A DNA stretch of 64,000 nucleotides, taken from positions 1,797 through 65,796 of the forward strand of contig JAOAJK010000008.1 in NCBI GenBank assembly GCA_026414225.1, given 5' to 3'. Shown here one piece after another: positions 49,095-63,714 of this stretch. The position numbers and the translations under genes are program-made. The notes below the pieces were generated by a model. It ran no database searches and was not told the DNA's origin. It saw only the letters and a list, made by a program, of their open reading frames with translations. Source of the stretch: Thermoplasmata archaeon. Its GTDB lineage: Archaea; Thermoplasmatota; Thermoplasmata; Lutacidiplasmatales; SKW197. Each line of letters starts with the position of its first letter. Positions within the stretch are counted from its first letter, which is position 1.

Positions 49095-50218
49095 AAATTT
49101 TGCAGGTGGCACCGTACTTTCACCCGCATGTCGGCGGTGTGGAATCCCATGTGTTTGCCCTATCCAGGGGGCTGGTGGAGCTCGGGCATGAGGTGAAGGT
49201 TCTCACCGCAAACCACACAAATAAACTGCCCACAGAAGAAAAATTTGAAGGACTTGAAATTATAAGGGTGCCAACGCTCGCAAACCTGTTCAACACCCCG
49301 ATAAATCCCTCAATTTTTTTCAAAGTGAGAAAATTAGATTTTGAAGTGGCCCATCTGCATTTCCCACCACCCCTCGCCTCCTTCTTCGCTGCCCTCTCGC
49401 TTGTGAAACTGAAAAAACCCTATGTGCTTACCTATCACTGTGATGTGGAGCTACCAGTGCCACTGGGCAACCTGATCGTTGAAGTATACAGAAACACGAT
49501 GGGAAGATACACCGTGGAGCATGCCTCGAAAATCATCGTGCATACAAAAACCTACCAGGCGACCTCAAGAAGCATCTGGAATCTGGAGCCAGTGATAATC
49601 CCCTCTGCCGTGGATACCCAGCGGTTCTCACCAGAACGATTTTCGCCCGAGTTAAAGAAAAGGTATGGAACCTTCAGAATTGTGCTGTTTGTGGGGCGGC
49701 TGGTTTACCAGAAAGGTGTGAGTTTCCTGATTGATGCATTCCAGTATCTCCCGAACAACGTTTTGTTGCTCATCGTTGGGGATGGGCCTGAAATGGAAAA
49801 CCTCAAAAAACTCGCGAAAATTCGCAATCTGGAACATAGGGTCATCTTCCTTGGCAGAATTTCGCATTTTGAACTCCCTTCCTATTTTGCGACTTGCGAT
49901 GTATTCGTGCTTCCCTCAGTTTCCCGGCTTGAAGCGTTCGGGCTCGTGATCGTTGAAGCAATGGCCTCCGGGAAGCCAGTTGTGGTTGCAGACATTCCGG
50001 GCGTGAATGAGGTGATTGAGGATGGCAGGGAGGGTTTGCTCTGCAAACCGATGAACCCTGAGGACCTGGCTGAAAAGATAAAAAGATTACTTGAAAATCC
50101 AGATCTGGCTAGGAGGCTCGGAGAAAACGGTAGGAAGACCGCCCTTGAAAAATATGAGTGGAGAAAAATTGCAAAGGATGTTGAAAGGGTTTATATGGAG
50201 GTTCTGAGAGCTCAGTGA
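49091..50218 (+). CDS. GT4-family (GT-B) glycosyltransferase
   Basis: MKILQVAPYFHPHVGGVESHV and EAFGLVIVEAMASGKPVVVADIPG (the E-x7-E region). ATGA overlap with the upstream gene. Confidence 0.85.
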   Translation: MKILQVAPYFHPHVGGVESHVFALSRGLVELGHEVKVLTANHTNKLPTEEKFEGLEIIRVPTLANLFNTPINPSIFFKVRKLDFEVAHLHFPPPLASFFAALSLVKLKKPYVLTYHCDVELPVPLGNLIVEVYRNTMGRYTVEHASKIIVHTKTYQATSRSIWNLEPVIIPSAVDTQRFSPERFSPELKKRYGTFRIVLFVGRLVYQKGVSFLIDAFQYLPNNVLLLIVGDGPEMENLKKLAKIRNLEHRVIFLGRISHFELPSYFATCDVFVLPSVSRLEAFGLVIVEAMASGKPVVVADIPGVNEVIEDGREGLLCKPMNPEDLAEKIKRLLENPDLARRLGENGRKTALEKYEWRKIAKDVERVYMEVLRAQ

Positions 50219-51078
50219 ATCTCCTTCACCGCAAGAATTTCCGTGCGGAACCCTGAGAACGAAGAGAGGAGCACCTTCTCCCTGGCAAACGCACCTGTTT
50301 CCTCAATGTATTTTGCAAAATGTTCCACACTGAACAGCTCTTTCTCCGGAACCTTGACTGAAACGAAAGCGGCTCTGGATGGAGAGACCTCTATGTCATT
50401 TAATGCCTGGAGCAAGCTTGTGCCCATTCCCAGGTCTGCCCTTCCCTTCACCGGATGTTTCTTCAGCATCTCGATACTCTTCCCAGTGAATCCATTTACC
50501 ACATGTTCCACCAGTGCATCAGCCATCTGATTTGCTATCTTCACCACCTTCATGAATCTCGTCTCATGGGAAAGGTCTGCAATCAACTGATTGTCAATAA
50601 GCCAGATATTGCCACCGCTCAGATAGTCAATCGCCTTATTCAGATCAAAATTACCTTCAAAGCAAAATGGGGCGTAGCCTATCACCAGCACAAGTTTGTG
50701 TTCGTAAATTTCCTTCAATGCCTTTGCAACTCCCATTCCTGTTCTTCCCCGGAGGGCAGTGATAACCACAATTACATCTGGTTCCCCTACTGCCTCTGTA
50801 ATCTTTTTGTAGTTGGCTACGCATAGGTGGTAAACATCCTCGCTGGTGTATTCCTCAAGGTTCTGCTCCGAGAGATAGATACGGTGCTGGGCGGCAGCAC
50901 TCAGCAAACTCCCACCGAGAGTGAGATTAATTGCCACCTTCTTTATTCTTGGCGTCTCAATTTTTATCTCCCTGAGTGTGTTGATGCCTGCACCACCACA
51001 ACCCACAACGCAGAGGTCAATCGGAGATGGATTTTCATCAAACATTTTTATCACATTCATCTTCTCACCCCCGTTCAT
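50212..51078 (-). CDS. degenerate FtsZ/tubulin-like protein lacking the canonical GGGTG[ST]G signature
   Basis: The T1-like VVGCGGAGINT is retained. The T4 position reads ITALRGRTGMG instead of AGMGGGTGTG. There is a PFCFEG-like T5 motif, and no NxDxxD T7 motif is visible. Its start lies 8 nt after the ftsZ stop. Confidence 0.6.
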   Translation of the reverse strand: MNGGEKMNVIKMFDENPSPIDLCVVGCGGAGINTLREIKIETPRIKKVAINLTLGGSLLSAAAQHRIYLSEQNLEEYTSEDVYHLCVANYKKITEAVGEPDVIVVITALRGRTGMGVAKALKEIYEHKLVLVIGYAPFCFEGNFDLNKAIDYLSGGNIWLIDNQLIADLSHETRFMKVVKIANQMADALVEHVVNGFTGKSIEMLKKHPVKGRADLGMGTSLLQALNDIEVSPSRAAFVSVKVPEKELFSVEHFAKYIEETGAFAREKVLLSSFSGFRTEILAVKEIH

Positions 51079-51086
51079 TGGACCAC

Positions 51087-52136
51087 CTACCTTGTAAGTT
51101 CAACCACCCCAGGCATGACCTCGTATATTCCTTCAGGTTCCAGCGGCACCAGTGACCTGACACCCACTGCAATTGCCATCACCCTGATACTTCCCTCGCA
51201 CTCCGGCAAAATTCTTGCTCCGAAGATTATGTTTGCATCATCACTGAAACGGGAGGCAATTCCCTCAATGACTGTGTTAGCATTCCTCAGCGTGAGCTTC
51301 GTTCCGCCTGTAATATGGATTATTGCAGCCCTTGCACCCGTGTAGTCGACATCCAGGAATGGATTGTTGAGGGCATCTTCCACAATTTTCTCGGGCTCCT
51401 CCTCAGAGCCCTCTCCATAGAGGAGCGTACTCATGTTGCCATCCGCATAAGAAAAGATTGTCCTCAGGTCTGCATAGTCGATGTTGATTAGTGAGGGAAG
51501 GGTGAGCGTATCAGTTACACCTGAAATCATCTCAGCAATCACCTGGTCCATCACCCCAAAGGCATGTTCAAGCGGAAGTGTCGGGGCAATATCCAGGAGT
51601 TTGTTGTTGTCCAGCACAATCAAGCAGTCGGAGAATCTCCGCATGGCCGCAATTCCCTTTTTTGCTGTCGGGATCCTTCCCTTTTCATACCTGAACGGCG
51701 AAGTTGCCACAGAAATCACAATCGCTCCTGCCTCCTTCGCAATCTCCGCTACAACTGGGGCTGCACCCGTGCCTGTGCCACCACCCATCCCGGCAATCAC
51801 AAATGCGATGTGGGTACCTCTGAACGCTGTTTCAAGTTCTCGCCTTGAAAGTTCCGCGGCATGTGCACCTATTTCAGGCAGTCCTCCAGCGCCGTTGCCC
51901 CGCGTCAGGTGTCCCCCGAGCAAAATCTTCTTCCTTGCATGGATTGATTTGAGATGCACATAGTCGGTGTTGATAGCGATAGAATCAATGTTCTTTACGC
52001 CCAGTTTCTGGAGGTGGTGTAAACTGTTGCACCCCGCACCGCCAACCCCTACAACCTTTATGTTTATCTCTGGTTTTGGCATGGGATACTCCTTTTCGAA
52101 TTCTTCCGCATCTTTTATTATTGAGTTTATTGTCAT
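51087..52136 (-). CDS. ftsZ: cell division GTPase FtsZ
   Basis: VVGVGGAGCNS, GAGG.PEIG, AGMGGGTGTGAAPVVAEIAKE, PFRYEG-type PFRYEKG, and INIDYADLRT (T7). Confidence 0.92.
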   Translation of the reverse strand: MTINSIIKDAEEFEKEYPMPKPEINIKVVGVGGAGCNSLHHLQKLGVKNIDSIAINTDYVHLKSIHARKKILLGGHLTRGNGAGGLPEIGAHAAELSRRELETAFRGTHIAFVIAGMGGGTGTGAAPVVAEIAKEAGAIVISVATSPFRYEKGRIPTAKKGIAAMRRFSDCLIVLDNNKLLDIAPTLPLEHAFGVMDQVIAEMISGVTDTLTLPSLINIDYADLRTIFSYADGNMSTLLYGEGSEEEPEKIVEDALNNPFLDVDYTGARAAIIHITGGTKLTLRNANTVIEGIASRFSDDANIIFGARILPECEGSIRVMAIAVGVRSLVPLEPEGIYEVMPGVVELTR

Positions 52137-52176
52137 GGTCCCACCCCTTCTGGTTTTTAATCGGACGGTCTGGCAT

Positions 52177-52515
52177 TTACTGGCTTTTTACGGTGGCAAT
52201 CTCCTTCAGCTTTTTCTCCAGGTAGTCCCTGATTGCGTTTCTTATCGCCTCCTCGATGCTCACGGCGTCCATTCCTTCGCTTATCATCGCCTCAAGTTTC
52301 AGTGCAAGGCTTTTCGGGAGAGCCAGTGTCACCATCGTGATGTTTTCAGGAGGCAGCTGTTTCTGGATGTAGTCGTCGAGGGCACGGCGGATTACCTCCG
52401 AGAGATTTTTCTCGTTATTCTTTTTCTGGATTTGCTCCAGTTTCTGGAGATACTCCAGAGGCAACCTCACCGTTATTCTTGCGGTCTCTTCTGCCATCAT
52501 ACCACCGTCAGCCAT
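52177..52515 (-). CDS. tandem ribbon-helix-helix (CopG-like) protein
   Basis: Two RHH units: ITVRLPLEYLQKLEQI...NLSEVIRRALDDYI and VTLALPKSLALKLEAMI...SIEEAIRNAIRDYL. The gene lies 40 nt upstream of ftsZ. Confidence 0.65.
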   Translation of the reverse strand: MADGGMMAEETARITVRLPLEYLQKLEQIQKKNNEKNLSEVIRRALDDYIQKQLPPENITMVTLALPKSLALKLEAMISEGMDAVSIEEAIRNAIRDYLEKKLKEIATVKSQ

Positions 52516-52590
52516 TTGCCTTCATTTTGTCCGACAAATAGACATACATTTGGAAGTATATAAACCTTTGCAGGGAGCGATTTTTATTAA

Positions 52591-52860
52591 TTATCTAATA
52601 TATTTTGATATATATAATTCTGTTCTTTTATTTATCGAAATTCCTGCCTTTTTCAGGTCATCCAGACACCGCTGCATCGTGGTTTTCTCAGGAAAGATCA
52701 CATAGTATGAATCAGTTCCAACAACCCTCAGCACGAGGATTTTCAGTCCTTTTTCCAGTATCACCTTGTCCATGCTTGCCTTGTATGCCACAAAAGGCAT
52801 TATGTTCTCTGGTACACCCGGATATGTGAGAACGCTCACAACCTCAGCAAAATGTTCCAT
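52591..52860 (-). CDS. small hypothetical protein (89 aa)
   Basis: ORF only; no motif recognised. Confidence 0.35.
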   Translation of the reverse strand: MEHFAEVVSVLTYPGVPENIMPFVAYKASMDKVILEKGLKILVLRVVGTDSYYVIFPEKTTMQRCLDDLKKAGISINKRTELYISKYIR

Positions 52861-52978
52861 GCAATGGTATAGACCCTCCGAGATTTAGATTTTTCCAACG
52901 ATGCATTTGCAGATAGGAAAAAGATATTAAAGCGGGAGAACTTATAGGTAACCAACCGTTCAGCATGATGGTGGAAAA

Positions 52979-53548
52979 ATGACTGAAATTACAGAGGGCT
53001 TCTGTAGGGCAGGCGTACTGCAAACGGACCTGGAGTACATTAAAAAGAAAAAGGGAAATGAAGGACTGAATAAACTGGATAAAGTTTTGAAAGGGATGGG
53101 GATATCGCTCCCTAATATCCAGAGCATGCGGTCCCGCGACAATGTACCTCTCTGGATGAGATGCAAATTCCTAGATGCATGTCTGGAAGTGTTCGACGGT
53201 AACATTGAAAAGATAAGAGAGATGGGTAGAGAGGCCCCCAAGGCATCAATGCTGATAAAGATGCTGTATCCATTTCATCTCAGCCCGAATTATGCCCTGA
53301 CACATGCATCCCGAGTGTGGCGGGACCACTATTCTGCTGGAGAACTTGTGATTCTAGAAAGTTCATCCTGCCATGCCCTGCTTGCCCTGAAAAATTTCAG
53401 GACCACAAAGTTGATGTGCATCTTCTTTGCGGGTGCGTTCGTGGGCGTGGGCGACCTTACCAAGGCAAAAAATCTGGTTTGCACTGAAGTAAAATGTGTG
53501 AATGAGGGTCATGAATGGTGTGAGTATGCTTTTAAGTGGGACATCTGA
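52979..53548 (+). CDS. V4R-like (4-vinyl-reductase / DUF2378-like) small-molecule-binding domain protein, copy 1
   Basis: 189 aa. The C-terminal LMCIFFAGAFVGVGDL...VCTEVKCVNEGHEWCEYAFKW matches the V4R ending (E.kC...Gd..CeF). Confidence 0.6.
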   Translation: MTEITEGFCRAGVLQTDLEYIKKKKGNEGLNKLDKVLKGMGISLPNIQSMRSRDNVPLWMRCKFLDACLEVFDGNIEKIREMGREAPKASMLIKMLYPFHLSPNYALTHASRVWRDHYSAGELVILESSSCHALLALKNFRTTKLMCIFFAGAFVGVGDLTKAKNLVCTEVKCVNEGHEWCEYAFKWDI

Positions 53549-53645
53549 TTTTTTTATAATGCTAGAAATCAAGCACCGAACTGAGAAAGATTATTAAAGC
53601 AGGAAGGAATACAGGGTTACAACAGCTCAAAATGCCGGTGGAGAT

Positions 53646-54215
53646 ATGGTGGAAATTACAGAGGGCTGGTGCAAAGCAGGTTTATTTCACGCAAATCTGG
53701 AATACATAAAGAAGAAAAGAGGGGGCGAGGGCCTCCACCGTCTAGATAAGAAACTTGGTGAACTGGGAATTTCCCTAACTCAAATCAGAACGATGCGGAC
53801 CCATGACCATGTGCCCCTCAGTGTTAGGGCAAAATTCCTGGACGCCTGTCTGGATGTATTTGACGGAAACCTGGAGAGAATAAAGGAAATGGGCAGAGAG
53901 GCACCCCGTGTGTCGTCGCTGATAAAGATGATTCTACCTTACTTTCTCACAATCAACTATACACTGAAACACGCCCCAGGCCTCTGGAAGGAGCATTACT
54001 CCGTGGGTGAACTCGTGGTTCTTGAAAATGAACCAGATCATGCACGGCTCGCTCTGAAAAATTTCAGGTCCACTAGGTTGATGTGCGTTTATTTCACAGG
54101 GTATTTTGTTGGCGTGGGTGACCTGTGCAAGGCGAAGAACATGGTCTGCACAGAAGTAAAGTGTGTTCATGACGGGGATGACTGGTGCGAGTATGCTTTT
54201 AAGTGGGATGTTTGA
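53646..54215 (+). CDS. V4R-like small-molecule-binding domain protein, copy 2 (tandem paralog)
   Basis: 189 aa, collinear with copy 1 along its full length (ITEG.C.AG......LEYIKKK.G.EGL..LDK...FLDACL.VFDGN.E.I.EMGREAP...). Confidence 0.6.
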   Translation: MVEITEGWCKAGLFHANLEYIKKKRGGEGLHRLDKKLGELGISLTQIRTMRTHDHVPLSVRAKFLDACLDVFDGNLERIKEMGREAPRVSSLIKMILPYFLTINYTLKHAPGLWKEHYSVGELVVLENEPDHARLALKNFRSTRLMCVYFTGYFVGVGDLCKAKNMVCTEVKCVHDGDDWCEYAFKWDV

Positions 54216-54227
54216 TTGTGCAGATGT

Positions 54228-56786
54228 TTAGTTTCGCAATCTTTCAATCTCCCTCGCTACCTTTTTCTGCATAATTTTGTTCCCGCTCTGCTGGAAATAT
54301 CCTCTCACCTCTCCCAGCAACTTCGCCGCCTCCTCCTTCTTCCCCCAGTCAATATACAGCTGGGCCAGCTCAAATTTAACATTGTTTATACTTTCTGGCA
54401 ATTCAATCTCTGAGTACATCCGCAGTGACGCGAGATACCTTTTCTCCGATTCTGGATAATTACCTGCGTAACGAAAAACCTCAGCCATACCCGCTAACGC
54501 ATCAGCAATAAAATCCTGGCTGCCTGTCTCTTCAGCCGCATCCACAGCTCGCTGGGCGAGCTCCATTGCCTTATCAATCTTTCCCTGGCTTGCAAGGCAT
54601 GTGGATATGCTGTTTAAGATTGCCGAAACCATCTTCTTATCGTCTATTTCTGCAGCAATTTCGTATGCCCTCTGATAATACTCAAGTGCGGCCCCAGGAT
54701 CCTCCACCTTCTGGTAAACACTCCCAATGTTGAAGAGGGCAAGGGCAGTGCTTCCCTTCTCACCAGTTCTTTCTGCAATCTCAAGATACTTCTTAAAAAA
54801 TTCGATGGTCTTTTCCGGTTCCTCGCAGATGCGATAGTAAATAACCCCGATATTGTTGTAAACGCTAGCAACACCATCGAGGTCTCCGATTTCCTCGTAA
54901 ATTTTCTTTGAAATTTCAAAAAATTCCATGGCTTTCTGATACTCGCCCAGGTCGTCATAAACCCCGCCAAGATTGTGGTACGAGCCGGCAATCCCTTTCT
55001 TGAGATTGTACTTCTTCCTGATTTCGAGAGAACGCTCCAGGTAATCAATCGCCTCCCTTATTTTTCCAATGTACCACAAGGCAACACCCATTCTGTTATA
55101 TACCTCTCCCATTGCAATCTCATCACCCGCTTTTTCTGATAAACCTATGCTCTCCCTGTAATTTTCTACCGCCTTGATGAACTCACCCTTCGTTTCATAC
55201 ACCCAGCCCTTATTCCGCAAAATCTCACTTCTCAGGCAATATGCATCTGGCTCTGCCTCATCTTCTGCCCTCTCCAGGTGCGCCATACTCTCGGCAAAAT
55301 CTCCCTTTTTAAGATACGGCAGACCCAATTTCATCAGAAATCTTGCCCTCTCGTTTCTTTCAAGTGGCAACCGCAGAACCTCCTCGAGAACCTGGATCTC
55401 CCTGTCATACTCTGCCAGTATGTAATAACAATCCGCAAGCATATCATAAACCTTCAGGGTCTCCTCTCTCAATTCGCTGCTCGCCCCCAGAACCTCAAGC
55501 CCCTTTTTTGCATCCAGCAACTCCTTCAGGCATTCCGCAATTGCGAAATTTCTAAGGGTAAACTCTGCAGAGATTCTCTTGAACTTAACCCCATTCCTTA
55601 TTTCTCCGCCCAGCAGGTAATGCCTGCCAATCTCTCCAGCATATTTTGGATTTCCCCCATAAATTTGCTCCAGCACTGCAGCCGCTCTCGCATGGAGAAT
55701 TCGCTTCCTTGTGCCTATGATTTCACCGTAAACGACCTCATAAACAGGGTTGTGGACGAATCTGTAGACCTCATCCCCTTTTTCGGATTCCTCAAGATAA
55801 TCGATAGCAATCAACTTATCGAGAATATCCAGCAATTTATTTTCCTCGATATCCACAAGTTTTTTCATTACCCTGTACTCAAACTCCCTTCCGAGGATTG
55901 CACAGGTCTTCAGTACCTTCTTTGTCTCTTCATCCAGTTTTGCAAATCTGTACAGAATCATCGTCTTTATGGTTTCTGGCAGCTCAATCTTTTCAATCTC
56001 CAGTGCCCCCAGATTCTTTCCGCTGCTGAAAAATCCCTGTTCCAGGAGGACTTTTCCCATCTCCTGAACAAACAGGGGATTGCCCTCGGTTCTCCTATAA
56101 ATTTCTTTCACAATTTTGTCGGGCAGATTTCCTGCACCAGTAATTGCATTCAATATCTCTGCCACACCTCCTTCAGCCAACGGCCTGAGCTCAATCGTTT
56201 CTGCAACCCGTTCGATGTTTATGTTCTGCACTGTTTTCGTAAACTGATTTACCTGGCCAGTTCTCATACTTTCAATCTGGTATGCAATCACAGCAACGAG
56301 GGACAGCCTTCTCACATTCCTGGCTAGATAGTGAACAAACCCCAAAGTGCCTGAATCCGCCCATTGAAAATCATCGAGGGCAAGAAGAACTGGCTTTGTT
56401 CTCATGATGCGTTCAAACGCCCGCAAATAATTTTCAAAGATTCTGTTTTGCTCCCTGAACGGATTCGCAGAATACAGCGGGGTCTGTTCAATCCCTGATA
56501 GCCCAATTGGTAGATAGGTGGACTCATTCTCCTTCGAAATTCTCGTCAGTGCATCATCTAATGGGAGAAACGGGCTGCTTTTTTCATCAATGCAATTTCC
56601 AGAAAGGACTGCGAAGCCCGTATCTCTGGCAACGCTGCAAATCTCCTGAACTAGCCGGGTTTTTCCGATACCCGAAGCCCCTGTAATAAAATAGATTCTT
56701 CCCCTCCCTGACCTTGCATCGTCCATTCCAGTTCTGATAGTTTCCATTTCTTTTTCTCTTCCAAAGAGAGGAAGGTCCATGGACAC
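54228..56786 (-). CDS. STAND-like AAA (AAA_16-type) NTPase with C-terminal TPR array
   Basis: LFGREKEMETI...YFITGASGIGKTRL (Walker A), VLLALDDFQWAD (Walker B), then a wHTH-like linker and about 10 TPR units of 40 aa. Confidence 0.8.
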   Translation of the reverse strand: MSMDLPLFGREKEMETIRTGMDDARSGRGRIYFITGASGIGKTRLVQEICSVARDTGFAVLSGNCIDEKSSPFLPLDDALTRISKENESTYLPIGLSGIEQTPLYSANPFREQNRIFENYLRAFERIMRTKPVLLALDDFQWADSGTLGFVHYLARNVRRLSLVAVIAYQIESMRTGQVNQFTKTVQNINIERVAETIELRPLAEGGVAEILNAITGAGNLPDKIVKEIYRRTEGNPLFVQEMGKVLLEQGFFSSGKNLGALEIEKIELPETIKTMILYRFAKLDEETKKVLKTCAILGREFEYRVMKKLVDIEENKLLDILDKLIAIDYLEESEKGDEVYRFVHNPVYEVVYGEIIGTRKRILHARAAAVLEQIYGGNPKYAGEIGRHYLLGGEIRNGVKFKRISAEFTLRNFAIAECLKELLDAKKGLEVLGASSELREETLKVYDMLADCYYILAEYDREIQVLEEVLRLPLERNERARFLMKLGLPYLKKGDFAESMAHLERAEDEAEPDAYCLRSEILRNKGWVYETKGEFIKAVENYRESIGLSEKAGDEIAMGEVYNRMGVALWYIGKIREAIDYLERSLEIRKKYNLKKGIAGSYHNLGGVYDDLGEYQKAMEFFEISKKIYEEIGDLDGVASVYNNIGVIYYRICEEPEKTIEFFKKYLEIAERTGEKGSTALALFNIGSVYQKVEDPGAALEYYQRAYEIAAEIDDKKMVSAILNSISTCLASQGKIDKAMELAQRAVDAAEETGSQDFIADALAGMAEVFRYAGNYPESEKRYLASLRMYSEIELPESINNVKFELAQLYIDWGKKEEAAKLLGEVRGYFQQSGNKIMQKKVAREIERLRN

Positions 56787-56833
56787 AGGAACACCTTGAA
56801 TTAGAAATAGATTTTCCTGGTGGAAAAGGGCTT

Positions 56834-57808
56834 TTAGGATTTCTTTGTGAATACATCCGGGTTAACTATCTGGTCTGGTGTTTCCCCCTTCAACGCCTTC
56901 ACAAGCTGGGTTGCGGCCATGATTGCCATGTTTGTCCTTGTCCTGGTGGTTGCGCTTCCGATGTGGGGGGCAAGCACAACATTTTCCATCTCATACAGCT
57001 CCTCCGTAACTGCTGGCTCAAATTCATATACATCCAGTGCAGCACCTGCAATCACACCCTCCTTCAGGCATCGCACGAGGGCTTTTTCATCCACGCACTG
57101 CCCTCTAGCCGTGTTTATCAGGTAAGCGGACTTTTTCATCATTCTGAGGCGACGCTCGTCCATCAGGTGATAGGTATCACGGGTCAACGGGATATGGAGG
57201 GTCACAAAGTCCGACTCACGCACCAGATCGTCAATTTCAAGCTTTATTCCACCCATCTCCTCAATCTCTCTATTTGGCTTCCTGCTCGCATAAAGGATTT
57301 CCATTCCAAAACCTTTTGCCCTTCTGGCCACTGCAGTCCCGATCTTGCCAGCCCCTATAATTCCTACCGTGCTTCCGTGGACATCGGTCCCGAGCAGGAG
57401 TGTGGGTGCCCAGCCAGTAAACGCTCGCCTTCGCATCAATCTATCTCCTTCAGGAATCCGTCTTGCCACAGCGAGAAGCAACCCGAATGCCAGGTCTGCG
57501 GTGGTTTCCGTCAGTGCCGAGGGTGCGTTGGTGACAACAATTCCCTTTTTCGTGGCATGGGCGACATCGATATGGTTCACGCCAGCAGAATAGGTGGAGA
57601 TTGCCCTGAGCTTAGCGCACGCGTCCATCACCTCGGCATCGATTGTATCTGTAAGGAGACAGAGCAGACCCTCTTTGTCCCTCGCGCCGGCAATTATCTC
57701 TGCTTTGGTAGGAATCCGCTCTTCTGGGAAAACCTCAACCTTGCACTCTTTCTCAAGAATTTCCATGCCCTCTTCCGGAATTTTTCTTGTAACAAACACA
57801 TTATACAT
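56834..57808 (-). CDS. gyaR: glyoxylate/hydroxypyruvate reductase (D-2-hydroxyacid dehydrogenase family)
   Basis: GIIGAGKIGTAVARRAKGFGM NAD fold; INTARG...ALDVYE.EP...APHIGSAT catalytic R/E/H pattern. Confidence 0.85.
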   Translation of the reverse strand: MYNVFVTRKIPEEGMEILEKECKVEVFPEERIPTKAEIIAGARDKEGLLCLLTDTIDAEVMDACAKLRAISTYSAGVNHIDVAHATKKGIVVTNAPSALTETTADLAFGLLLAVARRIPEGDRLMRRRAFTGWAPTLLLGTDVHGSTVGIIGAGKIGTAVARRAKGFGMEILYASRKPNREIEEMGGIKLEIDDLVRESDFVTLHIPLTRDTYHLMDERRLRMMKKSAYLINTARGQCVDEKALVRCLKEGVIAGAALDVYEFEPAVTEELYEMENVVLAPHIGSATTRTRTNMAIMAATQLVKALKGETPDQIVNPDVFTKKS

Positions 57809-57850
57809 GAAAACAGGTAAGGAATATGGGTATAACAGGGTTTTGGTTGA

Positions 57851-60800
57851 CTATGGTTTTCCGTTCTGTCTGCCCGAGAGTTGAGAGTGCTGGAGCAGTT
57901 CTGCAAATTTATCAGACCATGTGCCAGTGTTTTTTTCACTGGAGATTTTGAGGGCTTTTCCGAGGTAATCCATCGCCTTTTCTACATTGCCAGGTTTCTG
58001 CTGTTTCAGCAACATCAAACAGTACTCGTAACATGTCTTCGCAAACTCGAGGAGCATATTCATTTTCCAGTAGAGAGAAAGGGCTTTTTCAAATGCTGCC
58101 TCTGCATCCTCAAACAACCCTTCCTCCCTCCTAACTATTCCCAGTGTCCTGCGATACTCCGCCTCCAAACTTTCCGAACCGATTTCAGAGACAATTGTTC
58201 CCGCCTTGCCCACACACTCCAGAGCTTTTTCCAGTTTCTGCTGCTTGGCTAGAACTTCCGCAAGGCCATTGAACCCGACGCACAGCAGTTCCTTAGAACC
58301 AGATTTTTCAGCAATTCCGAGGGCTTTCTCGTAGTAGGTTTTTGCCTCCTCCATTTTGTTCATTCTTTTACAAAGATTGCCCAGGTTTATGTAAGAAAGG
58401 GAAAGCCCATAACTATCGCCGATATTTTCCCGCAAAACCACACTCCGTGTGAGATACCTTTCGGCATTCCCGAAATCCCATTTTTCCATATAAATGCTGC
58501 CCAGTGCATTATATATGAGCGCCACACCGTGAGTGTCACCTATCCTCTCCTTTATTACCAGTCCCTTTTCATAAAACCGAAGTGCCTGGTCCAAGTCACC
58601 CTTATCAAAATGCACACTTCCGATATTTATGTAAGAAAGCCCGATTCCGTAGGTGTCACCGATTTTTTTCGCGATTTCCATGCTCTTCTCAAAGTTTTTG
58701 AGGGCAAGATCCAGTTCCCCTTTTCCGTAGTACACAATACCCAGGTTATTAGAGGACTTGCCAATTCCCTCTATATCATTTATGTCTTCAGAAATCTCCA
58801 ATGACTGGGTAAGAAGGTTTATTGCTTCCTTATCATCCCCGAGGTACATCCTGATAGTCCCCATTCTCCGGTAAATCAGTCCAATTTCTTTTTTGTTTTC
58901 GTCCCGCCTGCACATTTCAAGAGCTTTTTCTAATTTCTCGAGGGCCCTATCATACTCACCCTTTCGCATATAGACCAGTCCCTCAAACGAAAGGATTATA
59001 CTCATCTCCCTGGATTCTCCTGCAACCAGTTCCTCTGCCTTTGTGCAGAAGTTCATCGCCTCATCAAATCTACCCATCTTTTCATACACTTCTCCAATTC
59101 TCCTGTGGAGCACCCCTAACTTTTTCAAATCTGGGAGTTGGATTCGTTTGAGCTCTTCAATAGCTTCTGAAAAACATGCTATCGCGTTTTCATAATTTCC
59201 GTTGAGACCGTGAATTTCACCGAGTTTCTCCAGGCACTCTACATATCGGTCCCGCTGTTTTTCTTTCTCAATACATTCAATAGCGTGCCTGTAAAAACTT
59301 GCTGCTTCCCTCACCGCAAAATTTTCCAGGGCCCTGTTTCCAGCTGCGAGGAGATGGGGCAGTGCCCTCTCTTTCAACCCTGCGGAATAATAATGGATTC
59401 CAAGCATGGGTGCCACTGCATCCAGGTTTCCCCTGTGCTGCTCCTCGATATAACTGGCAATCAGTCCATGATACTCCTTTCGAAGTTCGGGATTCAGCGA
59501 TTCATAGATTGTTTCCCGTATTTTCGTATGGTCAAACCGGTACTGGTCACCGGCAGGATGAATCAGTTTATACTCCCTCTCAAGGGTGTTCAGCATCTTG
59601 AGCACAGTTATCCTGGGCATCCCGGCAACATGTTCAATTGTTTTTGAATGAAAGTGCTCGCCTTCCACCGCCGCTATTTCGAGAATGTCTCTGTGCGCCT
59701 CTTCCAGATGGTTGATTCTGTATTCTATTACACTCTGGACTTTTTCGGGAATCTTGATTTTGTTGATATCCAGCGGTTTTTCAAGAATGTATTGTTGCTG
59801 GTTATCGTCGTAAAATATGACCCTCTCCTCAAGGAGCAATTTAAAAACTTCCAGTATGAACAGGGGATTACCCTCGGTTTCCCTGTATATTGTATCCAGA
59901 AAACTCTCTTCGAGATATTTGATTTTCCCGAAATGTGCCTCCAGAAGCAGGAGGGTCTCTTCCTTTGTAAACCTGGATAATTCTATTTTCTTCACCAGTC
60001 CCTCCCTGTCCATCAAGCGAATCGTTTCTGCGAGAGGATGGGGTTTTCCATCCCAACCGGTTGTGATGTCTTCAGTCCTGTATGTGCCTATCAGGAGAAC
60101 AGGCAAATTTCTGAGATTTCTGGCAAGGTAGTGAATCAGGGCGAGCGTGGATGGGTCTGCCCACTGCAAGTCGTCGATGAAAAGAAACAGAGGATTCCTT
60201 TTGGCTTCCCTCCTTAACCCCGAAAGAATGTTCTCGTATATCCTGTTAAGCTTGAGTTTAGGATCATCCAGTTCTTTCGAATAATCAATTCCATCGTACT
60301 TGCCAGAACCTACCATTGATTTTAAAATTTCATCAATTCTCTGCACCTTCTCTACATCCCCACGCCAGTTTTTGAGAACCTCGCCAAATTCTTTTTCTAC
60401 CTCCCTGTGGACTTCTTCCATGTCCTCCTTCAAAAATTCATCCGGTTCCCCGCGAACTATCGCCACAAGGTTCACGGCTTGACCCTTGTTTATCAATATT
60501 GTCCAGTCGCCATATCCTAACCTGTTGAGGGCGTGGTGTTCTTCAGTTTCCTTTTTATCCAGCATTGACAGGGTGTCCCTGACAAAGTTGTTAACCGCGG
60601 TTATCATCCCTGCAAAGATGTCTGAATCCAGCGAGGAAATTGCCCGCTCATACTTCGATACCAGAAGTCCTGCGTCATTCATGAAATATGCACATTCCAG
60701 TTTGGGCGGGGGTTTGTCTACCACCAGAGATTCCAGCCCTGCGGTTCGTAATGCCTCTCTCACAGACATGTAGGGTACAATTGCGTCCTTTACACAGTAA

Positions 60801-60994
60801 CCCGCCAGCACTTTGTAGTTTTTTGCCACGGCGTACTCGGTTAGCTTGCTGACAAGGGTGGTCTTTCCGATTCCGGCCTCACCACCGATAAGCACACAGC
60901 CCGCCTCCCCAGTCAAGGCTGCATCTACATATTGCTTGAGCAAGATGTGCTCTTTCTCACGGGCGACAAACACTGCGCTCATGGTCTGAAACAT
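57851..60994 (-). CDS. STAND-like AAA NTPase + TPR array, with ~140-aa insertion between Walker A and Walker B
   Basis: FVAREKEHILL...LIGGEAGIGKTTL, an insertion (ECAYFMNDAGLLVSKYE...IFAGMITAVNNFVRDTL...WTILINKGQAVNLVAIVRGEP...), LFLFIDDLQWAD, then a long TPR array. Confidence 0.8.
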   Translation of the reverse strand: MFQTMSAVFVAREKEHILLKQYVDAALTGEAGCVLIGGEAGIGKTTLVSKLTEYAVAKNYKVLAGYCVKDAIVPYMSVREALRTAGLESLVVDKPPPKLECAYFMNDAGLLVSKYERAISSLDSDIFAGMITAVNNFVRDTLSMLDKKETEEHHALNRLGYGDWTILINKGQAVNLVAIVRGEPDEFLKEDMEEVHREVEKEFGEVLKNWRGDVEKVQRIDEILKSMVGSGKYDGIDYSKELDDPKLKLNRIYENILSGLRREAKRNPLFLFIDDLQWADPSTLALIHYLARNLRNLPVLLIGTYRTEDITTGWDGKPHPLAETIRLMDREGLVKKIELSRFTKEETLLLLEAHFGKIKYLEESFLDTIYRETEGNPLFILEVFKLLLEERVIFYDDNQQQYILEKPLDINKIKIPEKVQSVIEYRINHLEEAHRDILEIAAVEGEHFHSKTIEHVAGMPRITVLKMLNTLEREYKLIHPAGDQYRFDHTKIRETIYESLNPELRKEYHGLIASYIEEQHRGNLDAVAPMLGIHYYSAGLKERALPHLLAAGNRALENFAVREAASFYRHAIECIEKEKQRDRYVECLEKLGEIHGLNGNYENAIACFSEAIEELKRIQLPDLKKLGVLHRRIGEVYEKMGRFDEAMNFCTKAEELVAGESREMSIILSFEGLVYMRKGEYDRALEKLEKALEMCRRDENKKEIGLIYRRMGTIRMYLGDDKEAINLLTQSLEISEDINDIEGIGKSSNNLGIVYYGKGELDLALKNFEKSMEIAKKIGDTYGIGLSYINIGSVHFDKGDLDQALRFYEKGLVIKERIGDTHGVALIYNALGSIYMEKWDFGNAERYLTRSVVLRENIGDSYGLSLSYINLGNLCKRMNKMEEAKTYYEKALGIAEKSGSKELLCVGFNGLAEVLAKQQKLEKALECVGKAGTIVSEIGSESLEAEYRRTLGIVRREEGLFEDAEAAFEKALSLYWKMNMLLEFAKTCYEYCLMLLKQQKPGNVEKAMDYLGKALKISSEKNTGTWSDKFAELLQHSQLSGRQNGKP

Positions 60995-61065
60995 AATCGC
61001 TTGCCTGTATAATAATCTTTATGCTGTCAACAATCCTTAAATATCCGCACCATTTATAATCCTGA

Positions 61066-63714
61066 ATGACCCGCAATCCTCTATTTCTGGTTGATAGGGA
61101 GCAGGAGCTTGCATTTTTAAGGCAGGTAATGGAGGAGGGAAAGATAGGTAGAGGCCACACCGTACTTATTACAGGGGATGTTGGCATCGGCAAAACAAGG
61201 CTCGTGGAAGAGTTTATGGATATCTGCCAAAAAGAGGGTTTTGCAGTTCTACCTTCAATCTGTATCGGAAATAACCAGCCAGCATTCCTGCCTGTGGGGA
61301 CTGCACTTCAGACCTATGCGAAGAAGGTTCGTGAGCGACCTGATATGTATGTCCCGATCGGTCTGGCAGGTTTTCAAAGTTTAGAGATTGAAACATCCAA
61401 CCCTGCTGAGGTGGTAAAGGAACGGACAAGAATGCTGGAGTATCTACTTCACCAGTTTGCTGCAATTGCAAAACAGCAGCCAGTGCTTTTTGTGATTGAT
61501 GACCTACATCTTGCCGACTCTGCAACGCTTGCATTCTTCCATTATCTTGCAAGAAATATAAGGAATGAGAGAATTATTGCAGTTGGTACTTTCGTTGAGG
61601 AGTTTGCCAGTACCGAAAATATTTTTGCAAACACCTTGAAGAACATGAACATTGAACGCCTGCCGGCCATCTTGAAACTCGCGAATTTGGGCGAAAAAGA
61701 GATTAACCAAATTGTTGAACAGATGGGATTTGGAGAAACTGAGGAATTGGCTAAATACCTCAATGAAAGAACCTCAGGAAACCCATTGTTCATAATTGAG
61801 TTTCTGGCAGCAACCAAGAACACGGGATTGACGGAGATAGAGGCAATTAAAAAAATGTCACTTCCAGAGAATGTCAAGGACATCGTAAGATTTCGTGTAT
61901 CCAAACTGCCGGAAAGAACGAGGAAGGTTCTTGCCACATGTGCGGTGCTGGGAAGGATATTCGAGTATGGGGTCCTCAGTGCGCTTGCAGGGCTGCAGGA
62001 GGAGGAGTTGCTGGATTCGATTGAGGAACTGATTTCGCAGAATTTCCTGGTTGAAACGGAGGAATTTGAGGAAGGGTATAAGTTCGTAAGCAACACTGCC
62101 CACGAAGTGATATATGCTGATATAACGGGTGTGCGGAGAAGGATACTCCATCAGAAAGCTGCAGAGGTAATCGAGAAACTGCACGGGACGGATGAGCGTT
62201 TTTGGAGCGGACTTGCAAGACATTACAGGGAAGGTGGAAACAAAACCAAGTTTCTGGAGTATGCAGTAAAAGCTGGGCGCAGTGCCGCAAGTAGATTTGC
62301 AAATGCTGAGGCAATTGCCCATCTCAAAGGGGCTTTGGAGGTTTTGGACGAAACGCCGGATAACCTTCAAAAGAGGATTGAAGTTATGTGGGAACTTGCG
62401 GAGGTCCTGGAACTGGAAGGGAGGTACGGGGAAGCGCTGGAAATGCTGGATAAAAGAATCATGGTCACGGCAACAAACAATCCGTTTGAAACTGGGAAAA
62501 GTCATAGAAAAAAATCGGAAATTTCCATTTACAGGGGAGATTACGACCGTGCCTTGGCCGAGTGCGAAAGGGCCGAACAGTTTCTTACAGAATTGACAGA
62601 TGCGAAATTGGAACTTGCAAGGGTTTGGAGTGCAAAGGGAATGGTATATGAGCGAAAAGGGGACTATGTAAAGGGAATCGAGTGGCAGAACAGGGCGCTG
62701 GGGGTGTTTGAGAAAATAAACGCAGAAAAGGATGTCGGAAGTGCCCTCAACAAAATCGGCCTTTGTCTCTGGTATTTAGGGGAGTGTGATAAAGCCCTCG
62801 AACAATATCAAAAATCCCTTGCGATCCGTGAAAAAATAAAAGATTTGCGTGGAATTGCGATGTCATATAACAATATCGGACTAGTCAATGATACCAAGGG
62901 AAATCATGAGAAGGCATTGGGTTACTATGAGAAGAGCCTTGGTATCTGCGAGAAGATTGGTGATGTTTGGGGCATTGCAATCTCCTACAACAACATTGGG
63001 TTAATCTACTCCAGTATGGGGGACTATGATAAAGCATTGAGATACTATGAAAAGAGCATCGGTATCTGCGAAAAGATTGGCGATGTTTGGGGCATTGCTC
63101 TGGTGTGCAACAACATAGGCGCACTCTACGGAAGGAAGGGGGATTATGAGAAAGCACTGGAATATTGCGAGAAAAGTCTTGGGATCTACAAAAAAATAGG
63201 TGATGTTATGGGCATCGCTAGAGCATACGCAGAAATCGCCCTGATACATGAGGCGAAAGGGGACTATGAATTGGCACTAAAATCCTCTCAAGAAACTATT
63301 GCACTCGGAAAACAGATTCAGAATAATGAAATGATTGCCACAGGATTTGTGCAAGTTTGTGAGATATACCTGTCCAAATCCGAGATTGGCCCTGCAAAGG
63401 AGCATCTGAAAGAGGGGAAGAAACATCTGGGAGAACATTGCGATAAAAAATTAATCGCGTATTCCGATTATGTAGAAGGTAAACTTCTGGCAGCAGAGAG
63501 ACGCGAAGAGGAAGCCAGGAAAATTTTGAAAACTGCAATAAAAATGTATGATGAGATTAAATCCCATGACACTGAATATTACATGGCACTGTTTGAGATT
63601 GGCAGAATTGAGCGTGATGTGGAAACTTTAAAAAAATCGCTTGCGTTTTTCGAGAAAATCGGGAACAGGATTTGGGTTGAAAGGGTCAAAGATGTGCTGG
63701 AAAATCTGGGATGA
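61066..63714 (+). CDS. STAND-like AAA NTPase + TPR array
   Basis: LVDREQELAFL...LITGDVGIGKTRL, VLFVIDDLHLAD, and a TPR array with near-identical 40-aa units (YYEKSLGICEKIGDVWGIAISYNNIG / YYEKSIGICEKIGDVWGIALVCNNIG). Confidence 0.8.
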   Translation: MTRNPLFLVDREQELAFLRQVMEEGKIGRGHTVLITGDVGIGKTRLVEEFMDICQKEGFAVLPSICIGNNQPAFLPVGTALQTYAKKVRERPDMYVPIGLAGFQSLEIETSNPAEVVKERTRMLEYLLHQFAAIAKQQPVLFVIDDLHLADSATLAFFHYLARNIRNERIIAVGTFVEEFASTENIFANTLKNMNIERLPAILKLANLGEKEINQIVEQMGFGETEELAKYLNERTSGNPLFIIEFLAATKNTGLTEIEAIKKMSLPENVKDIVRFRVSKLPERTRKVLATCAVLGRIFEYGVLSALAGLQEEELLDSIEELISQNFLVETEEFEEGYKFVSNTAHEVIYADITGVRRRILHQKAAEVIEKLHGTDERFWSGLARHYREGGNKTKFLEYAVKAGRSAASRFANAEAIAHLKGALEVLDETPDNLQKRIEVMWELAEVLELEGRYGEALEMLDKRIMVTATNNPFETGKSHRKKSEISIYRGDYDRALAECERAEQFLTELTDAKLELARVWSAKGMVYERKGDYVKGIEWQNRALGVFEKINAEKDVGSALNKIGLCLWYLGECDKALEQYQKSLAIREKIKDLRGIAMSYNNIGLVNDTKGNHEKALGYYEKSLGICEKIGDVWGIAISYNNIGLIYSSMGDYDKALRYYEKSIGICEKIGDVWGIALVCNNIGALYGRKGDYEKALEYCEKSLGIYKKIGDVMGIARAYAEIALIHEAKGDYELALKSSQETIALGKQIQNNEMIATGFVQVCEIYLSKSEIGPAKEHLKEGKKHLGEHCDKKLIAYSDYVEGKLLAAERREEEARKILKTAIKMYDEIKSHDTEYYMALFEIGRIERDVETLKKSLAFFEKIGNRIWVERVKDVLENLG
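62700..63300 (+). repeat. 120-bp in-frame tandem repeats encoding 40-aa TPR units
   Basis: 62941-63000 vs 63061-63120 align at period exactly 120, with only 2 mismatches in the first 38 nt. Flanking units are progressively more diverged. Confidence 0.7.

What the first reader, a model, noticed from the sequence alone, without database searches (positions are those of the whole stretch)
52979..63714. Cluster of three paralogous effector-less STAND/TPR NTPases next to the V4R-like pair
Within 10.7 kb there are three large proteins (852, 1047 and 882 aa) that start directly with an AAA_16-type NTPase (GxxGIGKT; hhhhDD.QWAD/HLAD), followed by a wHTH-like linker and long 40-aa-period TPR arrays. 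They lack the N-terminal effector domains of antiviral Avs-type STANDs and the C-terminal LuxR HTH of MalT-type regulators. Two of them are divergently arranged across a 71-bp AT-rich spacer (60995-65). The third abuts the V4R-like pair (12 nt between the convergent stops). gyaR is the only housekeeping gene embedded. The arrangement suggests a ligand-sensing (V4R) plus oligomerising-switch (STAND) signalling or defence island of unknown output.
Basis: partly seen in the sequence, partly recalled or inferred. Interest (0 to 1): 0.65.

Follow-up and report, generated by a model that had tools for sequence, protein, structure and literature searches.

The report
Effector-less STAND-TPR ATPase paralogue cluster
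Three related switch-type ATPases with long TPR tails do sit beside two small sensor-fold proteins in this hot-spring archaeon, but the grouping looks like a local rearrangement, and the one new feature is a GTPase-regulator (Roadblock/longin) domain spliced into the middle ATPase.

Summary
Three ORFs (852, 1047 and 882 aa) start directly with an AAA_16 P-loop NTPase and end in 40-aa-period TPR arrays. None has an N- or C-terminal effector domain. They are 29-39% identical paralogues. The V4R-like pair, the 12-nt convergent gap and the 71-bp divergent spacer are as described.

No defence-system model matches. Synteny with the closest relative ends exactly at the V4R/STAND junction. That relative keeps three V4R-like genes and has no STAND beside them; its copy of the 1047-aa gene lies about 55 kb away.

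One related contig does place a V4R-like gene 4 kb from a homologue of the 852-aa gene. A loose link therefore cannot be excluded.

Its predicted fold matches Roadblock/LC7/longin structures. This insert-bearing family is widespread in Thermoplasmatota, and in 5 of 10 loci it is adjacent to a 291-aa Ras-like GTPase gene. No such gene occurs in this window.

The V4R-like proteins have an H-NOX/V4R fold with a V4R-type zinc motif.

Most likely these are cytoplasmic signalling switches. The middle one is probably coupled to a small GTPase.

The parts
52979..53548 (+). V1: 189-aa stand-alone H-NOX/V4R-fold protein with a Cys147/Glu170/Cys173/Cys181 zinc-type motif
   Evidence: ORF. Pfam V4R E 2.9e-4, below the cut-off. 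32 of 48 family members hit V4R. AF2 pLDDT 95.5. Foldseek gives H-NOX at TM ~0.70, then PoxR, MopR, MJ1460 and TRAPPC3. The motif aligns to the MopR zinc region.
53646..54215 (+). V2: 189-aa paralogue of V1 (65% identity)
   Evidence: It is conserved with V1 in the closest relative, which has a third copy.
54216..54227 (.). 12-nt gap between the convergent stops of V2 and S1; also the synteny breakpoint against the closest relative
   Evidence: Sequence. The blastn alignment with L001 ends at 54211-54217.
54228..56786 (-). S1: 852-aa AAA_16 NTPase (about 55527-56786) plus a TPR array (about 54231-55526); no insert and no effector domain
   Evidence: The closest homologue is P0004 at 49%. An S1-like gene in L095 is 43% identical.
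56834..57808 (-). D-2-hydroxyacid dehydrogenase, glyoxylate-reductase-like (gyaR-like); lies between S2 and S1 on the same strand with 42- and 47-nt gaps
   Evidence: Pfam 2-Hacid_dh_C E 2.5e-61. NCBIfam PRK13243 scores 377.6 bits, below the 455 cut-off.
57851..60994 (-). S2: 1047-aa AAA_16 NTPase with an inserted domain, followed by a TPR array (about 57854-59315)
   Evidence: More than 100 homologues share 38-45% identity over 99% of the NTPase+insert region, mostly in Thermoplasmatota.
60287..60721 (-). Roadblock/LC7/longin-fold insertion in S2 (residues ~92-236), between Walker A (60860-60883) and Walker B (60155-60190)
   Evidence: The alignment shows the insert is absent from S1 and S3 and conserved in the family. 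AF2 pLDDT 85, topology bb-a-bbb-a-a. The top 50 Foldseek PDB hits are all Roadblock, LAMTOR, MglB, longin or TRAPP. No Pfam hit.
60995..61065 (.). 71-bp AT-rich divergent spacer between S2 and S3, with TATA-like runs about 20-26 nt from each start codon (inferred leaderless archaeal promoters)
   Evidence: Sequence. The promoter reading is inference only.
61066..63714 (+). S3: 882-aa AAA_16 NTPase (about 61066-62355) plus a TPR array; closest paralogue of S1
   Evidence: 39% identity to the S1 NTPase module. A stop codon lies immediately upstream of the ATG.
62906..63156 (+). 120-bp tandem repeat (2.1 copies, 78% match) encoding near-identical 40-aa TPR units of S3

Best explanation
S1, S2 and S3 are lineage-specific paralogues of the AAA_16 (MalT/AfsR-related) branch of STAND NTPases. 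Each has a P-loop NTPase module followed by a TPR sensor array and has no built-in output domain.

By analogy with solved STANDs, each would rest as an ADP-bound, autoinhibited monomer. Binding of a ligand or partner to the TPR array would allow ATP exchange and oligomerisation. With no effector domain, the oligomer would act as a scaffold for proteins supplied in trans.

S2 differs from S1 and S3. It belongs to a conserved Thermoplasmatota family with a Roadblock/longin-fold domain inserted in the loop between Walker A and Walker B. Roadblock and longin domains are the classic partners of small GTPases. The family is often encoded next to a Ras-like GTPase. I therefore infer that S2-type proteins couple the STAND switch to a small GTPase, as its input or as its regulator.

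V1 and V2 are stand-alone H-NOX/V4R-fold zinc-site ligand binders. They belong to a different synteny block and were brought next to S1 by a rearrangement.

Shown: the architecture, the fold of the insert and of V1, the family distribution, the gene neighbourhoods and the synteny break. Inferred: oligomerisation, GTPase coupling and signalling role.
For: Architecture and motifs. Homologues of the S1 NTPase module include bacterial AAA_16 proteins fused to adenylate cyclase, SARP/BTAD, Trans_reg_C, HTH and GerE output domains, which are signalling proteins. The best NCBIfam hit is the AAA_16-TPR part of the TOMM kinase/cyclase fusion. A profile of the module gives the archaeal STAND PH0952 as its best solved relative (PMC6468293).

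Insert: conserved across the family and absent from S1 and S3. Confident model. The top 50 structural matches all belong to the Roadblock/longin superfamily. JGI names two homologues 'Roadblock/LC7/MglB'.

GTPase link: a 291-aa Ras/Arf/Roc-type gene lies next to the S2-family gene, on the same strand, in L009, L010, L012, L091 and L094. That is 5 of 10 distinct loci.

No conserved V4R module. No defence signal. Housekeeping surroundings.
Against: No Ras-like GTPase gene lies in the 64-kb window, nor beside the S2 orthologues of the two closest relatives. Coupling in this organism is therefore unproven.

The Roadblock call rests on a predicted structure. The sequence profile reaches a Roadblock chain only at E 0.18, and Pfam finds nothing.

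The helical and winged-helix parts of the NTPase module were not verified structurally. The match to PH0952 is weak (E 1.7e-5) and partial.

No expression or biochemical data exist; only one DNA run holds this sequence. The L095 contig shows that S1-like and V4R-like genes can recur near each other.
Confidence: 0.6

Rival explanations
1. V1 and V2 sense a small molecule and pass the signal to one or more adjacent STAND-TPR proteins, most likely S1, by binding the TPR array. Together they form one sensing and switching module.
For: V2 and S1 stops are 12 nt apart. A related contig, L095, has a V4R-like gene 4 kb from an S1-like gene in the same convergent orientation. Given how rare both families are, I estimate this as roughly a 1-in-100 chance event per genome. 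Distant bacterial members of the V4R-like family lie inside signalling operons with HAMP/Cache, PAS histidine kinase and response regulators. This resembles stand-alone H-NOX proteins, which regulate neighbouring kinases (established knowledge).
Against: The genes converge, so they are not co-transcribed. Synteny with the closest relative breaks exactly at the junction. That relative keeps three V4R-like genes with no STAND within 10 kb. In L095 three housekeeping genes separate the pair. No V4R-like gene lies near S2-family genes in nine other loci.
Confidence: 0.15
2. An antiviral or conflict system. The STAND-TPR proteins recognise viral proteins through fast-evolving TPR arrays, as Avs proteins do, and trigger an effector encoded elsewhere.
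For: STAND NTPases with repeat sensors are a common defence architecture (established knowledge). The paralogues are clustered and expanded; L094 has 3-4 copies. S1 and the V4R-like genes diverge much faster (42-43% identity) than neighbouring housekeeping genes (69-86%) in the L095 comparison. S3 has recently duplicated TPR units. There are weak PADLOC P-loop matches to mad8 and BrxD.
Against: There is no effector domain and no Avs model hit. The PADLOC hits are generic TPR or short P-loop matches. No BREX partners, integrase or mobile-element genes are nearby. The S2 family keeps a stable architecture and 38-45% identity across Thermoplasmatota, with housekeeping or GTPase neighbours.
Confidence: 0.1
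3. Non-switching TPR scaffolds or decaying duplicates. S1 and S3 are recent, lineage-restricted copies with little or no function, and the clustering only reflects tandem duplication.
For: S1 and S3 are each other's closest relatives. Very few close homologues were found for S1; S3 was not searched for homologues. The S2 orthologue in the nearest relative is called as three fragments in several MAGs.
Against: All three ORFs are intact over 850-1050 codons with canonical Walker A and B motifs. S1 and S3 are only 34-39% identical, so they are old duplicates kept open for a long time.
Confidence: 0.1

Closest known systems
MalT / AfsR / GutR-type AAA_16 STAND regulators and AAA_16-TPR adenylate cyclases (Pfam AAA_16 + TPR_MalT; TIGR03903 TOMM kinase/cyclase fusion)
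   Same: N-terminal-type P-loop module with GxxGxGKT and hhhhDD motifs, then a helical linker and a TPR sensor. TPR_MalT scores above its cut-off in all three proteins. The best NCBIfam matches are to the AAA_16-TPR part of TIGR03903 and to AfsR. Homologues carry cyclase, SARP, OmpR-type or LuxR output domains.
   Different: There is no output domain at all: no LuxR/GerE, SARP, cyclase or kinase. All curated family scores are far below their cut-offs. The host is an archaeon.
PH0952 of Pyrococcus horikoshii (PDB 6MFV), an archaeal STAND with a TPR sensor (PMC6468293)
   Same: It is the best solved relative of the S1/S3 NTPase profile. It is an archaeal NTPase-arm-TPR protein, and it provides the autoinhibition model in which the NTPase domain is clamped by the arm and the TPR sensor.
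   Different: [quoted passage not shown] The match is weak (E 1.7e-5) and covers only part of the module. PH0952 has no Roadblock-type insertion.
MglB / Roadblock-LC7 / LAMTOR / longin GTPase regulators
   Same: The S2 insert has the same fold. S2-family genes often sit next to a Ras-like GTPase gene, as mglB does with mglA (PMC4316618).
   Different: Here the domain is an insertion inside a STAND NTPase, not a free-standing dimeric protein. Its strand and helix order is longin-like (bb-a-bbb-a-a). It has no significant sequence match to Pfam Robl_LC7. GAP or GEF activity is untested.
V4R domains (XylR/DmpR/MopR/PoxR sensors, MJ1460), H-NOX domains, and TRAPPC3/Bet3
   Same: The predicted V1 fold matches H-NOX over its full length and V4R/TRAPPC3 over the core. 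The Cys-Glu-Cys-Cys/His motif aligns with the MopR zinc region. Zinc sites are described for PoxR and Thor-TRAPPC3 (PMC10933270).
   Different: No conserved proximal histidine or YxSxR motif, so heme binding as in H-NOX is unlikely (and direct reading). V1 and V2 are stand-alone proteins, not fused to a sigma-54 activator. The Pfam V4R score is below its cut-off.
Avs-type antiviral STAND NTPases
   Same: STAND NTPase plus a C-terminal TPR-like sensor.
   Different: No N-terminal effector, no PADLOC Avs hit and no defence-island context.

Membership tests
STAND NTPases (AAA_16 / MalT-related branch) | P-loop NTPase with Walker A and Walker B (hhhhDD) motifs | tested here: met
   AAA_16 E 4e-23, 3e-23 and 7e-21. 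Motifs located.
STAND NTPases (AAA_16 / MalT-related branch) | Complete NOD: NTPase domain + helical domain + winged-helix domain | tested here: inconclusive
   The ~250-residue linker is conserved with AAA_16 STAND homologues, and TIGR03903 aligns over residues 95-419 of S1. The profile reaches PH0952 only at E 1.7e-5 and only partially. No structure of the module was predicted.
STAND NTPases (AAA_16 / MalT-related branch) | C-terminal repeat sensor domain | tested here: met
   TPR_12 E 1e-53 to 1e-63. TPR_MalT scores 46.5, 96.2 and 51.9 bits against a cut-off of 45. 40-aa periodicity.
STAND NTPases (AAA_16 / MalT-related branch) | At least one terminal effector domain (usual, not universal) | tested here: not met
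   No domain lies N-terminal of Walker A (residues 36-38), and the frames cannot be extended. Nothing follows the TPR array.
MalT/LuxR-type transcription activators | C-terminal LuxR/GerE helix-turn-helix | tested here: not met
   No GerE hit in Pfam. The AbsR2 NCBIfam hits score 25-28 bits against a cut-off of 850.
Avs antiviral STANDs / known defence systems | Match to a defence-system protein model, plus an effector domain | tested here: not met
   PADLOC gives only generic TPR models and weak P-loop matches to mad8, BrxD and PDC candidates.
BREX BrxC/BrxD ATPase | Full-length BrxC_BrxD match and BREX partner genes | tested here: not met
   The Pfam BrxC_BrxD match covers residues 9-62 only, at 24 bits. 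No BREX genes are among the neighbours.
Roadblock/LC7/longin superfamily (S2 insert) | Alpha/beta sandwich fold: a five-stranded sheet flanked by helices | tested here: met
   AF2 pLDDT 85. All top 50 Foldseek hits belong to the superfamily, with E ~1e-4 and target-normalised TM-scores of about 0.45-0.69.
Roadblock/LC7/longin superfamily (S2 insert) | Significant sequence match to the family profile | tested here: not met
   No Pfam hit even at E 10. The profile against PDB reaches dynein Roadblock only at E 0.18.
Roadblock/LC7/longin superfamily (S2 insert) | Association with a small GTPase | tested here: inconclusive
   An adjacent Ras-like GTPase gene occurs in 5 of 10 homologous loci. None occurs in this window. 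Binding is untested.
V4R domain | Pfam V4R match at the gathering score | tested here: not met
   21.3 and 22.3 bits against a cut-off of 31. However, 32 of 48 family members match at E<=0.01, the best at 4.6e-9.
V4R domain | V4R/TRAPPC3 fold with a Cys/Glu/His zinc site | tested here: met
   Foldseek matches to PoxR, MopR, MJ1460 and TRAPPC3. C147, E170 and C173 are nearly invariant and align to the MopR zinc region. Metal binding itself is untested.
H-NOX (heme-NO/oxygen binding) | Proximal histidine and YxSxR heme-propionate motif | tested here: not met
   The fold matches best (TM ~0.70). No histidine is conserved across the 48-member alignment, and V1 reads H117-Y-S-A-G-E with no arginine.
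Glyoxylate reductase GyaR (NCBIfam PRK13243) | Score at or above the curated equivalog cut-off | tested here: not met
   377.6 bits against 455. The protein is safely a D-2-hydroxyacid dehydrogenase, but its substrate is not assigned.

The most novel reading that the evidence does not exclude
S2 and its Thermoplasmatota relatives form an undescribed class of STAND switch. A Roadblock/longin domain is inserted in the Walker A-Walker B loop. In PH0952, MalT and APAF1 this region makes the autoinhibitory contact with the sensor.

In this reading the inserted domain docks a Ras-like small GTPase. The GTPase's nucleotide state would then gate STAND opening and oligomerisation, or the STAND would act as the GTPase's regulator.

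This would be a direct wiring of a small GTPase to a STAND ATPase in a non-Asgard archaeon. A more speculative extension is that the adjacent V4R (Bet3-fold) proteins join the longin-like insert in a TRAPP-like GTPase-regulating assembly. I rate that extension at no more than 0.05.
Probability: 0.35. Interest if true: 0.7.

Novelty: new variant of a known kind. Interest (0 to 1): 0.5.

Why it matters
Effector-less AAA_16-TPR proteins are very common in genomes, and none has a known function.

The S2 family offers a concrete lead: a GTPase-regulator fold built into the ATPase, often with a Ras-like GTPase gene next door. If the coupling is real, it links two major classes of molecular switch (STAND ATPases and small GTPases) in archaea outside the Asgard group. 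Roadblock, longin, V4R and GTPase parts have mostly been discussed in Asgard archaea, in connection with eukaryote origins. It would also give a testable output for a STAND that lacks an effector domain.

The cluster itself, as originally described, is an ordinary lineage-specific arrangement. It should not be annotated as a defence island.

Tried and rejected
- Pfam on the isolated insert at E<=10 gave no domain. A sequence profile of the insert against PDB gave only a non-significant Roadblock hit. The fold had to be established by prediction and Foldseek.
- phmmer of full-length S2 and of the S1 NTPase module against PDB returned only TPR proteins or generic P-loops. Only a nine-sequence profile reached PH0952.
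- The genome-contig scan was largely wasted. The tool picked the generic [IL][ED]DLQWAD Walker-B pattern, so only three true S2-family loci were returned.
- Exact-sequence look-ups of S3, S2 and the gyaR-like protein found nothing on record. The ~3.9 kb of the contig beyond the window could not be read.
- The bacterial-type promoter and terminator scan was at chance level and does not apply to archaea.
- No RNA run holds this sequence, so expression could not be examined.
- BREX membership was rejected: it rests on a 54-residue P-loop match.
- An H-NOX heme sensor was rejected: the heme-ligating residues are missing.
- A mis-assembly at the V2/S1 junction was rejected: a single independent contig spans it.
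The full S2 NTPase module was therefore not modelled, and the placement of the insert relative to the initiator-specific motif is inferred from sequence only.

Full report
**Source and setting**

The window comes from a Thermoplasmata archaeon MAG. The V4R-like protein's only close database relative is labelled 'Thermoplasmata archaeon'. The single public run that holds this DNA is a hot-spring metagenome. Genes upstream of the finding are housekeeping: TruD, a KaiC-like ATPase, a DAO oxidoreductase, an AP endonuclease, a GT4 glycosyltransferase, two FtsZ/tubulin-like genes, an RHH protein and a DUF749 ORF.

**1. The observation**

The 852-aa (S1), 1047-aa (S2) and 882-aa (S3) proteins each begin with Pfam AAA_16 (E 4e-23, 3e-23 and 7e-21). 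Each continues into strong TPR_12 arrays (E 4e-63, 1e-60 and 6e-53), with TPR_MalT above its gathering score. None has a GerE/LuxR or any effector domain.

- Walker A reads GASGIGKT, GEAGIGKT and GDVGIGKT, starting at residues 36-38.
- Walker B reads VLLALDDFQWAD, LFLFIDDLQWAD and VLFVIDDLHLAD.
- The open frames run only 25, 8 and 0 codons upstream of the starts, so a missed N-terminal domain is excluded.
- The TPR arrays have a 40-residue period in all three.
- S3 contains a 120-bp DNA tandem repeat.
- The three proteins are genuine paralogues: 29-34% identity over nearly the full length. S1 and S3 are closest to each other, at 39% in the NTPase module.
- The 12-nt gap between the V2 and S1 stops and the 71-bp AT-rich divergent spacer are read directly.
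- An independent assembly of the same run has one 8.3-kb contig at even depth spanning the FtsZ-like gene, V1, V2, S1, gyaR and the start of S2. The arrangement is not a chimera.

**2. The V4R-like pair**

V1 and V2 (65% identical) hit Pfam V4R below its cut-off. An exhaustive profile search found 550 cluster representatives at E<=1e-3, nearly all ~200-aa stand-alone proteins. Of 48 aligned members, 32 match V4R, the best at E 4.6e-9.

The AF2 model of V1 is very confident (pLDDT 95.5). Its best structural matches are full-length H-NOX domains (TM ~0.70). These are followed by the V4R sensors PoxR and MopR, the V4R protein MJ1460, and TRAPPC3/Bet3.

C147, E170 and C173 are nearly invariant. 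They align with the Cys/Glu/Cys region of MopR. Zinc sites of this kind are described for PoxR and an Asgard TRAPPC3 (PMC10933270). No histidine is conserved and there is no YxSxR motif, so heme binding as in H-NOX is unlikely.

In distant, low-GC bacterial members the gene lies inside signalling operons. One has FIST, HAMP/sCache, a PAS histidine kinase and two response regulators. Another has PAS plus an Fe-hydrogenase-like gene. The family therefore looks like a stand-alone ligand-sensing accessory of signalling systems.

**3.

S2 aligns with S1 and S3 except for ~145 extra residues (about 92-236) between the Walker A and Walker B segments.

A search with the S2 N-terminal 573 residues returned more than 100 proteins that are 38-45% identical over 99% of the query, insert included. 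Where the hits are named, almost all are from Thermoplasmata, Methanomassiliicoccales and other Thermoplasmatota; one is from Hermodarchaeota. JGI labels two of them 'Roadblock/LC7/MglB'.

Pfam finds nothing in the insert, and a sequence profile reaches a dynein Roadblock chain only at E 0.18. An AF2 model from 24 family sequences is confident (pLDDT 85), with topology bb-a-bbb-a-a. All 50 best Foldseek matches in the PDB are Roadblock/LC7, LAMTOR, MglB, longin or TRAPP longin-type subunits.

From sequence, the insert lies in the connection after the second strand of the NTPase core. This is the region that holds the initiator-specific helices, which contact the TPR sensor in autoinhibited PH0952 (PMC6468293). 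This placement is an inference; the S2 NTPase module itself was not modelled.

**4. Gene neighbourhoods**

S2 family:
- A 291-aa Ras/Arf/Roc-type GTPase gene lies directly beside the S2-family gene on the same strand in five loci: CP070726, CP070767, a JGI contig, a Methanomassiliicoccales MAG and CP070672. The last holds three to four S2-like copies, two of them followed by GTPase genes.
- Five other loci lack it: this window, two close relatives, L013 and L092.
- HMM and tblastn searches find no such GTPase anywhere in the 64-kb window.
- Insert-less AAA_16-TPR paralogues also sit next to S2-like genes in L010 and L091. Clustering of such paralogues therefore recurs.

V4R link:
- The closest relative (~81% nt identity) is collinear with the window from 46028 to 54211, and collinearity stops exactly at the V2 stop.
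- That relative has three tandem V4R-like genes followed by CitG, Metallophos and ABC genes.
- Its S2 orthologue (79% identity) lies ~55 kb away between cobA and an aminotransferase gene. It is called as three fragments.
- A second relative's S2 orthologue also sits among housekeeping genes.
- The V4R-like HMM hits nothing in nine S2-family loci.

Counter-example:
- Contig L095 comes from an organism whose housekeeping proteins are 69-86% identical to the window's.
- It carries a V4R-like gene (42% identity) 4 kb from an S1-like gene. That gene is 43% identical to S1 and 69% identical to S1's best database hit.
- The two converge as in the window, but a radical-SAM gene, purH and a BcrAD-type ATPase gene lie between them.
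- The 3' side of the other S1-like gene (L099) is cut off by the contig end.

**5. Family placement of the NTPase module**

Homologues of the S1 module are at most 33% identical, apart from one at 49%. They include bacterial AAA_16 proteins fused to adenylate cyclase, SARP/BTAD, OmpR-type, HTH_3 or GerE domains.

The best NCBIfam matches are the AAA_16-TPR portion of the TOMM kinase/cyclase fusion and AfsR, all far below their cut-offs. A nine-sequence profile picks the archaeal STAND PH0952 as the best solved relative (E 1.7e-5, partial). PH0952 has an ArsR-like effector that is absent here.

PADLOC returns only generic TPR models and weak P-loop matches.

**6. Mechanism**

The best-supported reading is that S1-S3 are cytoplasmic STAND-type switches. 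Each would be an ADP-bound closed monomer that opens when the TPR sensor is engaged, then exchanges ATP and oligomerises. With no output domain, they must recruit partners in trans.

For S2-type proteins the Roadblock/longin insert and the frequent GTPase neighbour point to a small GTPase as that partner. The architecture, folds, distributions and neighbourhoods are shown. Oligomerisation, GTPase binding and any signalling output are inferred.

S2, the gyaR-like gene and S1 share a strand with 42- and 47-nt gaps, so they may be co-transcribed. That arrangement is not conserved. The gyaR-like gene scores below the glyoxylate-reductase cut-off.

**7. Novelty and verdict**

Full-text searches found no paper that joins 'STAND NTPase' with Roadblock. 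None describes Roadblock-GTPase systems in Thermoplasmatota. The main survey of prokaryotic Ras-like GTPases does not mention TPR or STAND partners. This is absence of evidence within the searchable library only.

The cluster as described is an ordinary, lineage-specific arrangement of a common but uncharacterised protein type. It is not a defence island, and it is not demonstrably a V4R-STAND module.

The Roadblock/longin-inserted STAND family and its GTPase neighbour make a new variant of a known kind and are worth follow-up. Overall interest is 0.5.

Noticed in passing
window 46028-54211 versus L001 (GCA_038874435.1): The window is collinear with the closest relative at ~81% nt identity up to exactly the V2 stop codon. 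The relative has an extra ~3-kb NosD/beta-helix gene at the point matching window ~50205, and a third V4R-like paralogue (43% identical to V2) after V2.
   Followed up: yes
L005 9823-12970, also L006 and L007: The S2 orthologue of the closest relative (79% identity) is called as three consecutive ORFs (73 or 56, 433, and 548 or 580 aa) in several MAGs. This suggests frameshifts or a pseudogene, whereas S2 in the window is intact.
   Followed up: partly
L009 11199-12074; L010 7045-7920; L091 9034-9909; L012 ~5689-6585; L094 12966-13841: A conserved 291-aa Ras/Arf/Roc-type GTPase lies next to S2-family genes. It has G1 GDSAVGKT, G4 NKSD and G3 DILGRE, with Arg where Ras has the catalytic Gln. 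It also has a ~120-aa C-terminal extension of unknown fold.
   Followed up: partly
L091 5604-7001 (-): A 465-aa protein with no Pfam hit contains two domains that match the HMM of the S2 insert (E 2e-23). It lies ~2 kb upstream of the GTPase/S2-like gene pair.
   Followed up: no
L094 (CP070672) 10001-21557: Local expansion: three S2-like genes plus a fragment, all carrying the insert, lie within 12 kb. Two are followed by Ras-like GTPase genes or fragments.
   Followed up: partly
L096 7092-12544; L097 4462-7073: Distant (~30% identity) V4R-like genes on low-GC contigs (one, L096, also carries a bacterial-type DNA polymerase III delta gene) are embedded in signalling operons. L096 has FIST, HAMP/sCache, a PAS histidine kinase and two response regulators. 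L097 has PAS and an Fe-hydrogenase-like gene.
   Followed up: partly
window 50212-52860 (-): A conserved minus-strand block diverges from V1: DUF749 (89 aa), an RHH/CopG protein (112 aa), an FtsZ (349 aa) and a second, weakly tubulin-like protein (288 aa). The relative keeps this block next to its V4R-like genes, so it is the only conserved neighbour of the pair.
   Followed up: partly
window 62906-63156 and Logan contig ends at 58460 and ~62963-63069: Near-identical 40-aa TPR units in S3 form a 120-bp tandem repeat (78% match), which indicates recent internal duplication. Breaks in the independent assembly fall inside the TPR arrays of S2 and S3.
   Followed up: yes
window 44281-46854 (-): An 857-aa protein with an N-terminal zinc ribbon and a C-terminal KaiC/DUF7504 ATPase domain. 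It is conserved in the relative and its function is unknown.
   Followed up: no
L095 9992-16537 versus window 22366-26240: In L095 the radical-SAM, purH and BcrAD genes (86%, 75% and 69% identical to the window's copies) lie between the V4R-like and S1-like genes. In the window the same trio is 30 kb away. The V4R-like and S1-like genes diverge far faster (42-43%) than these neighbours.
   Followed up: partly
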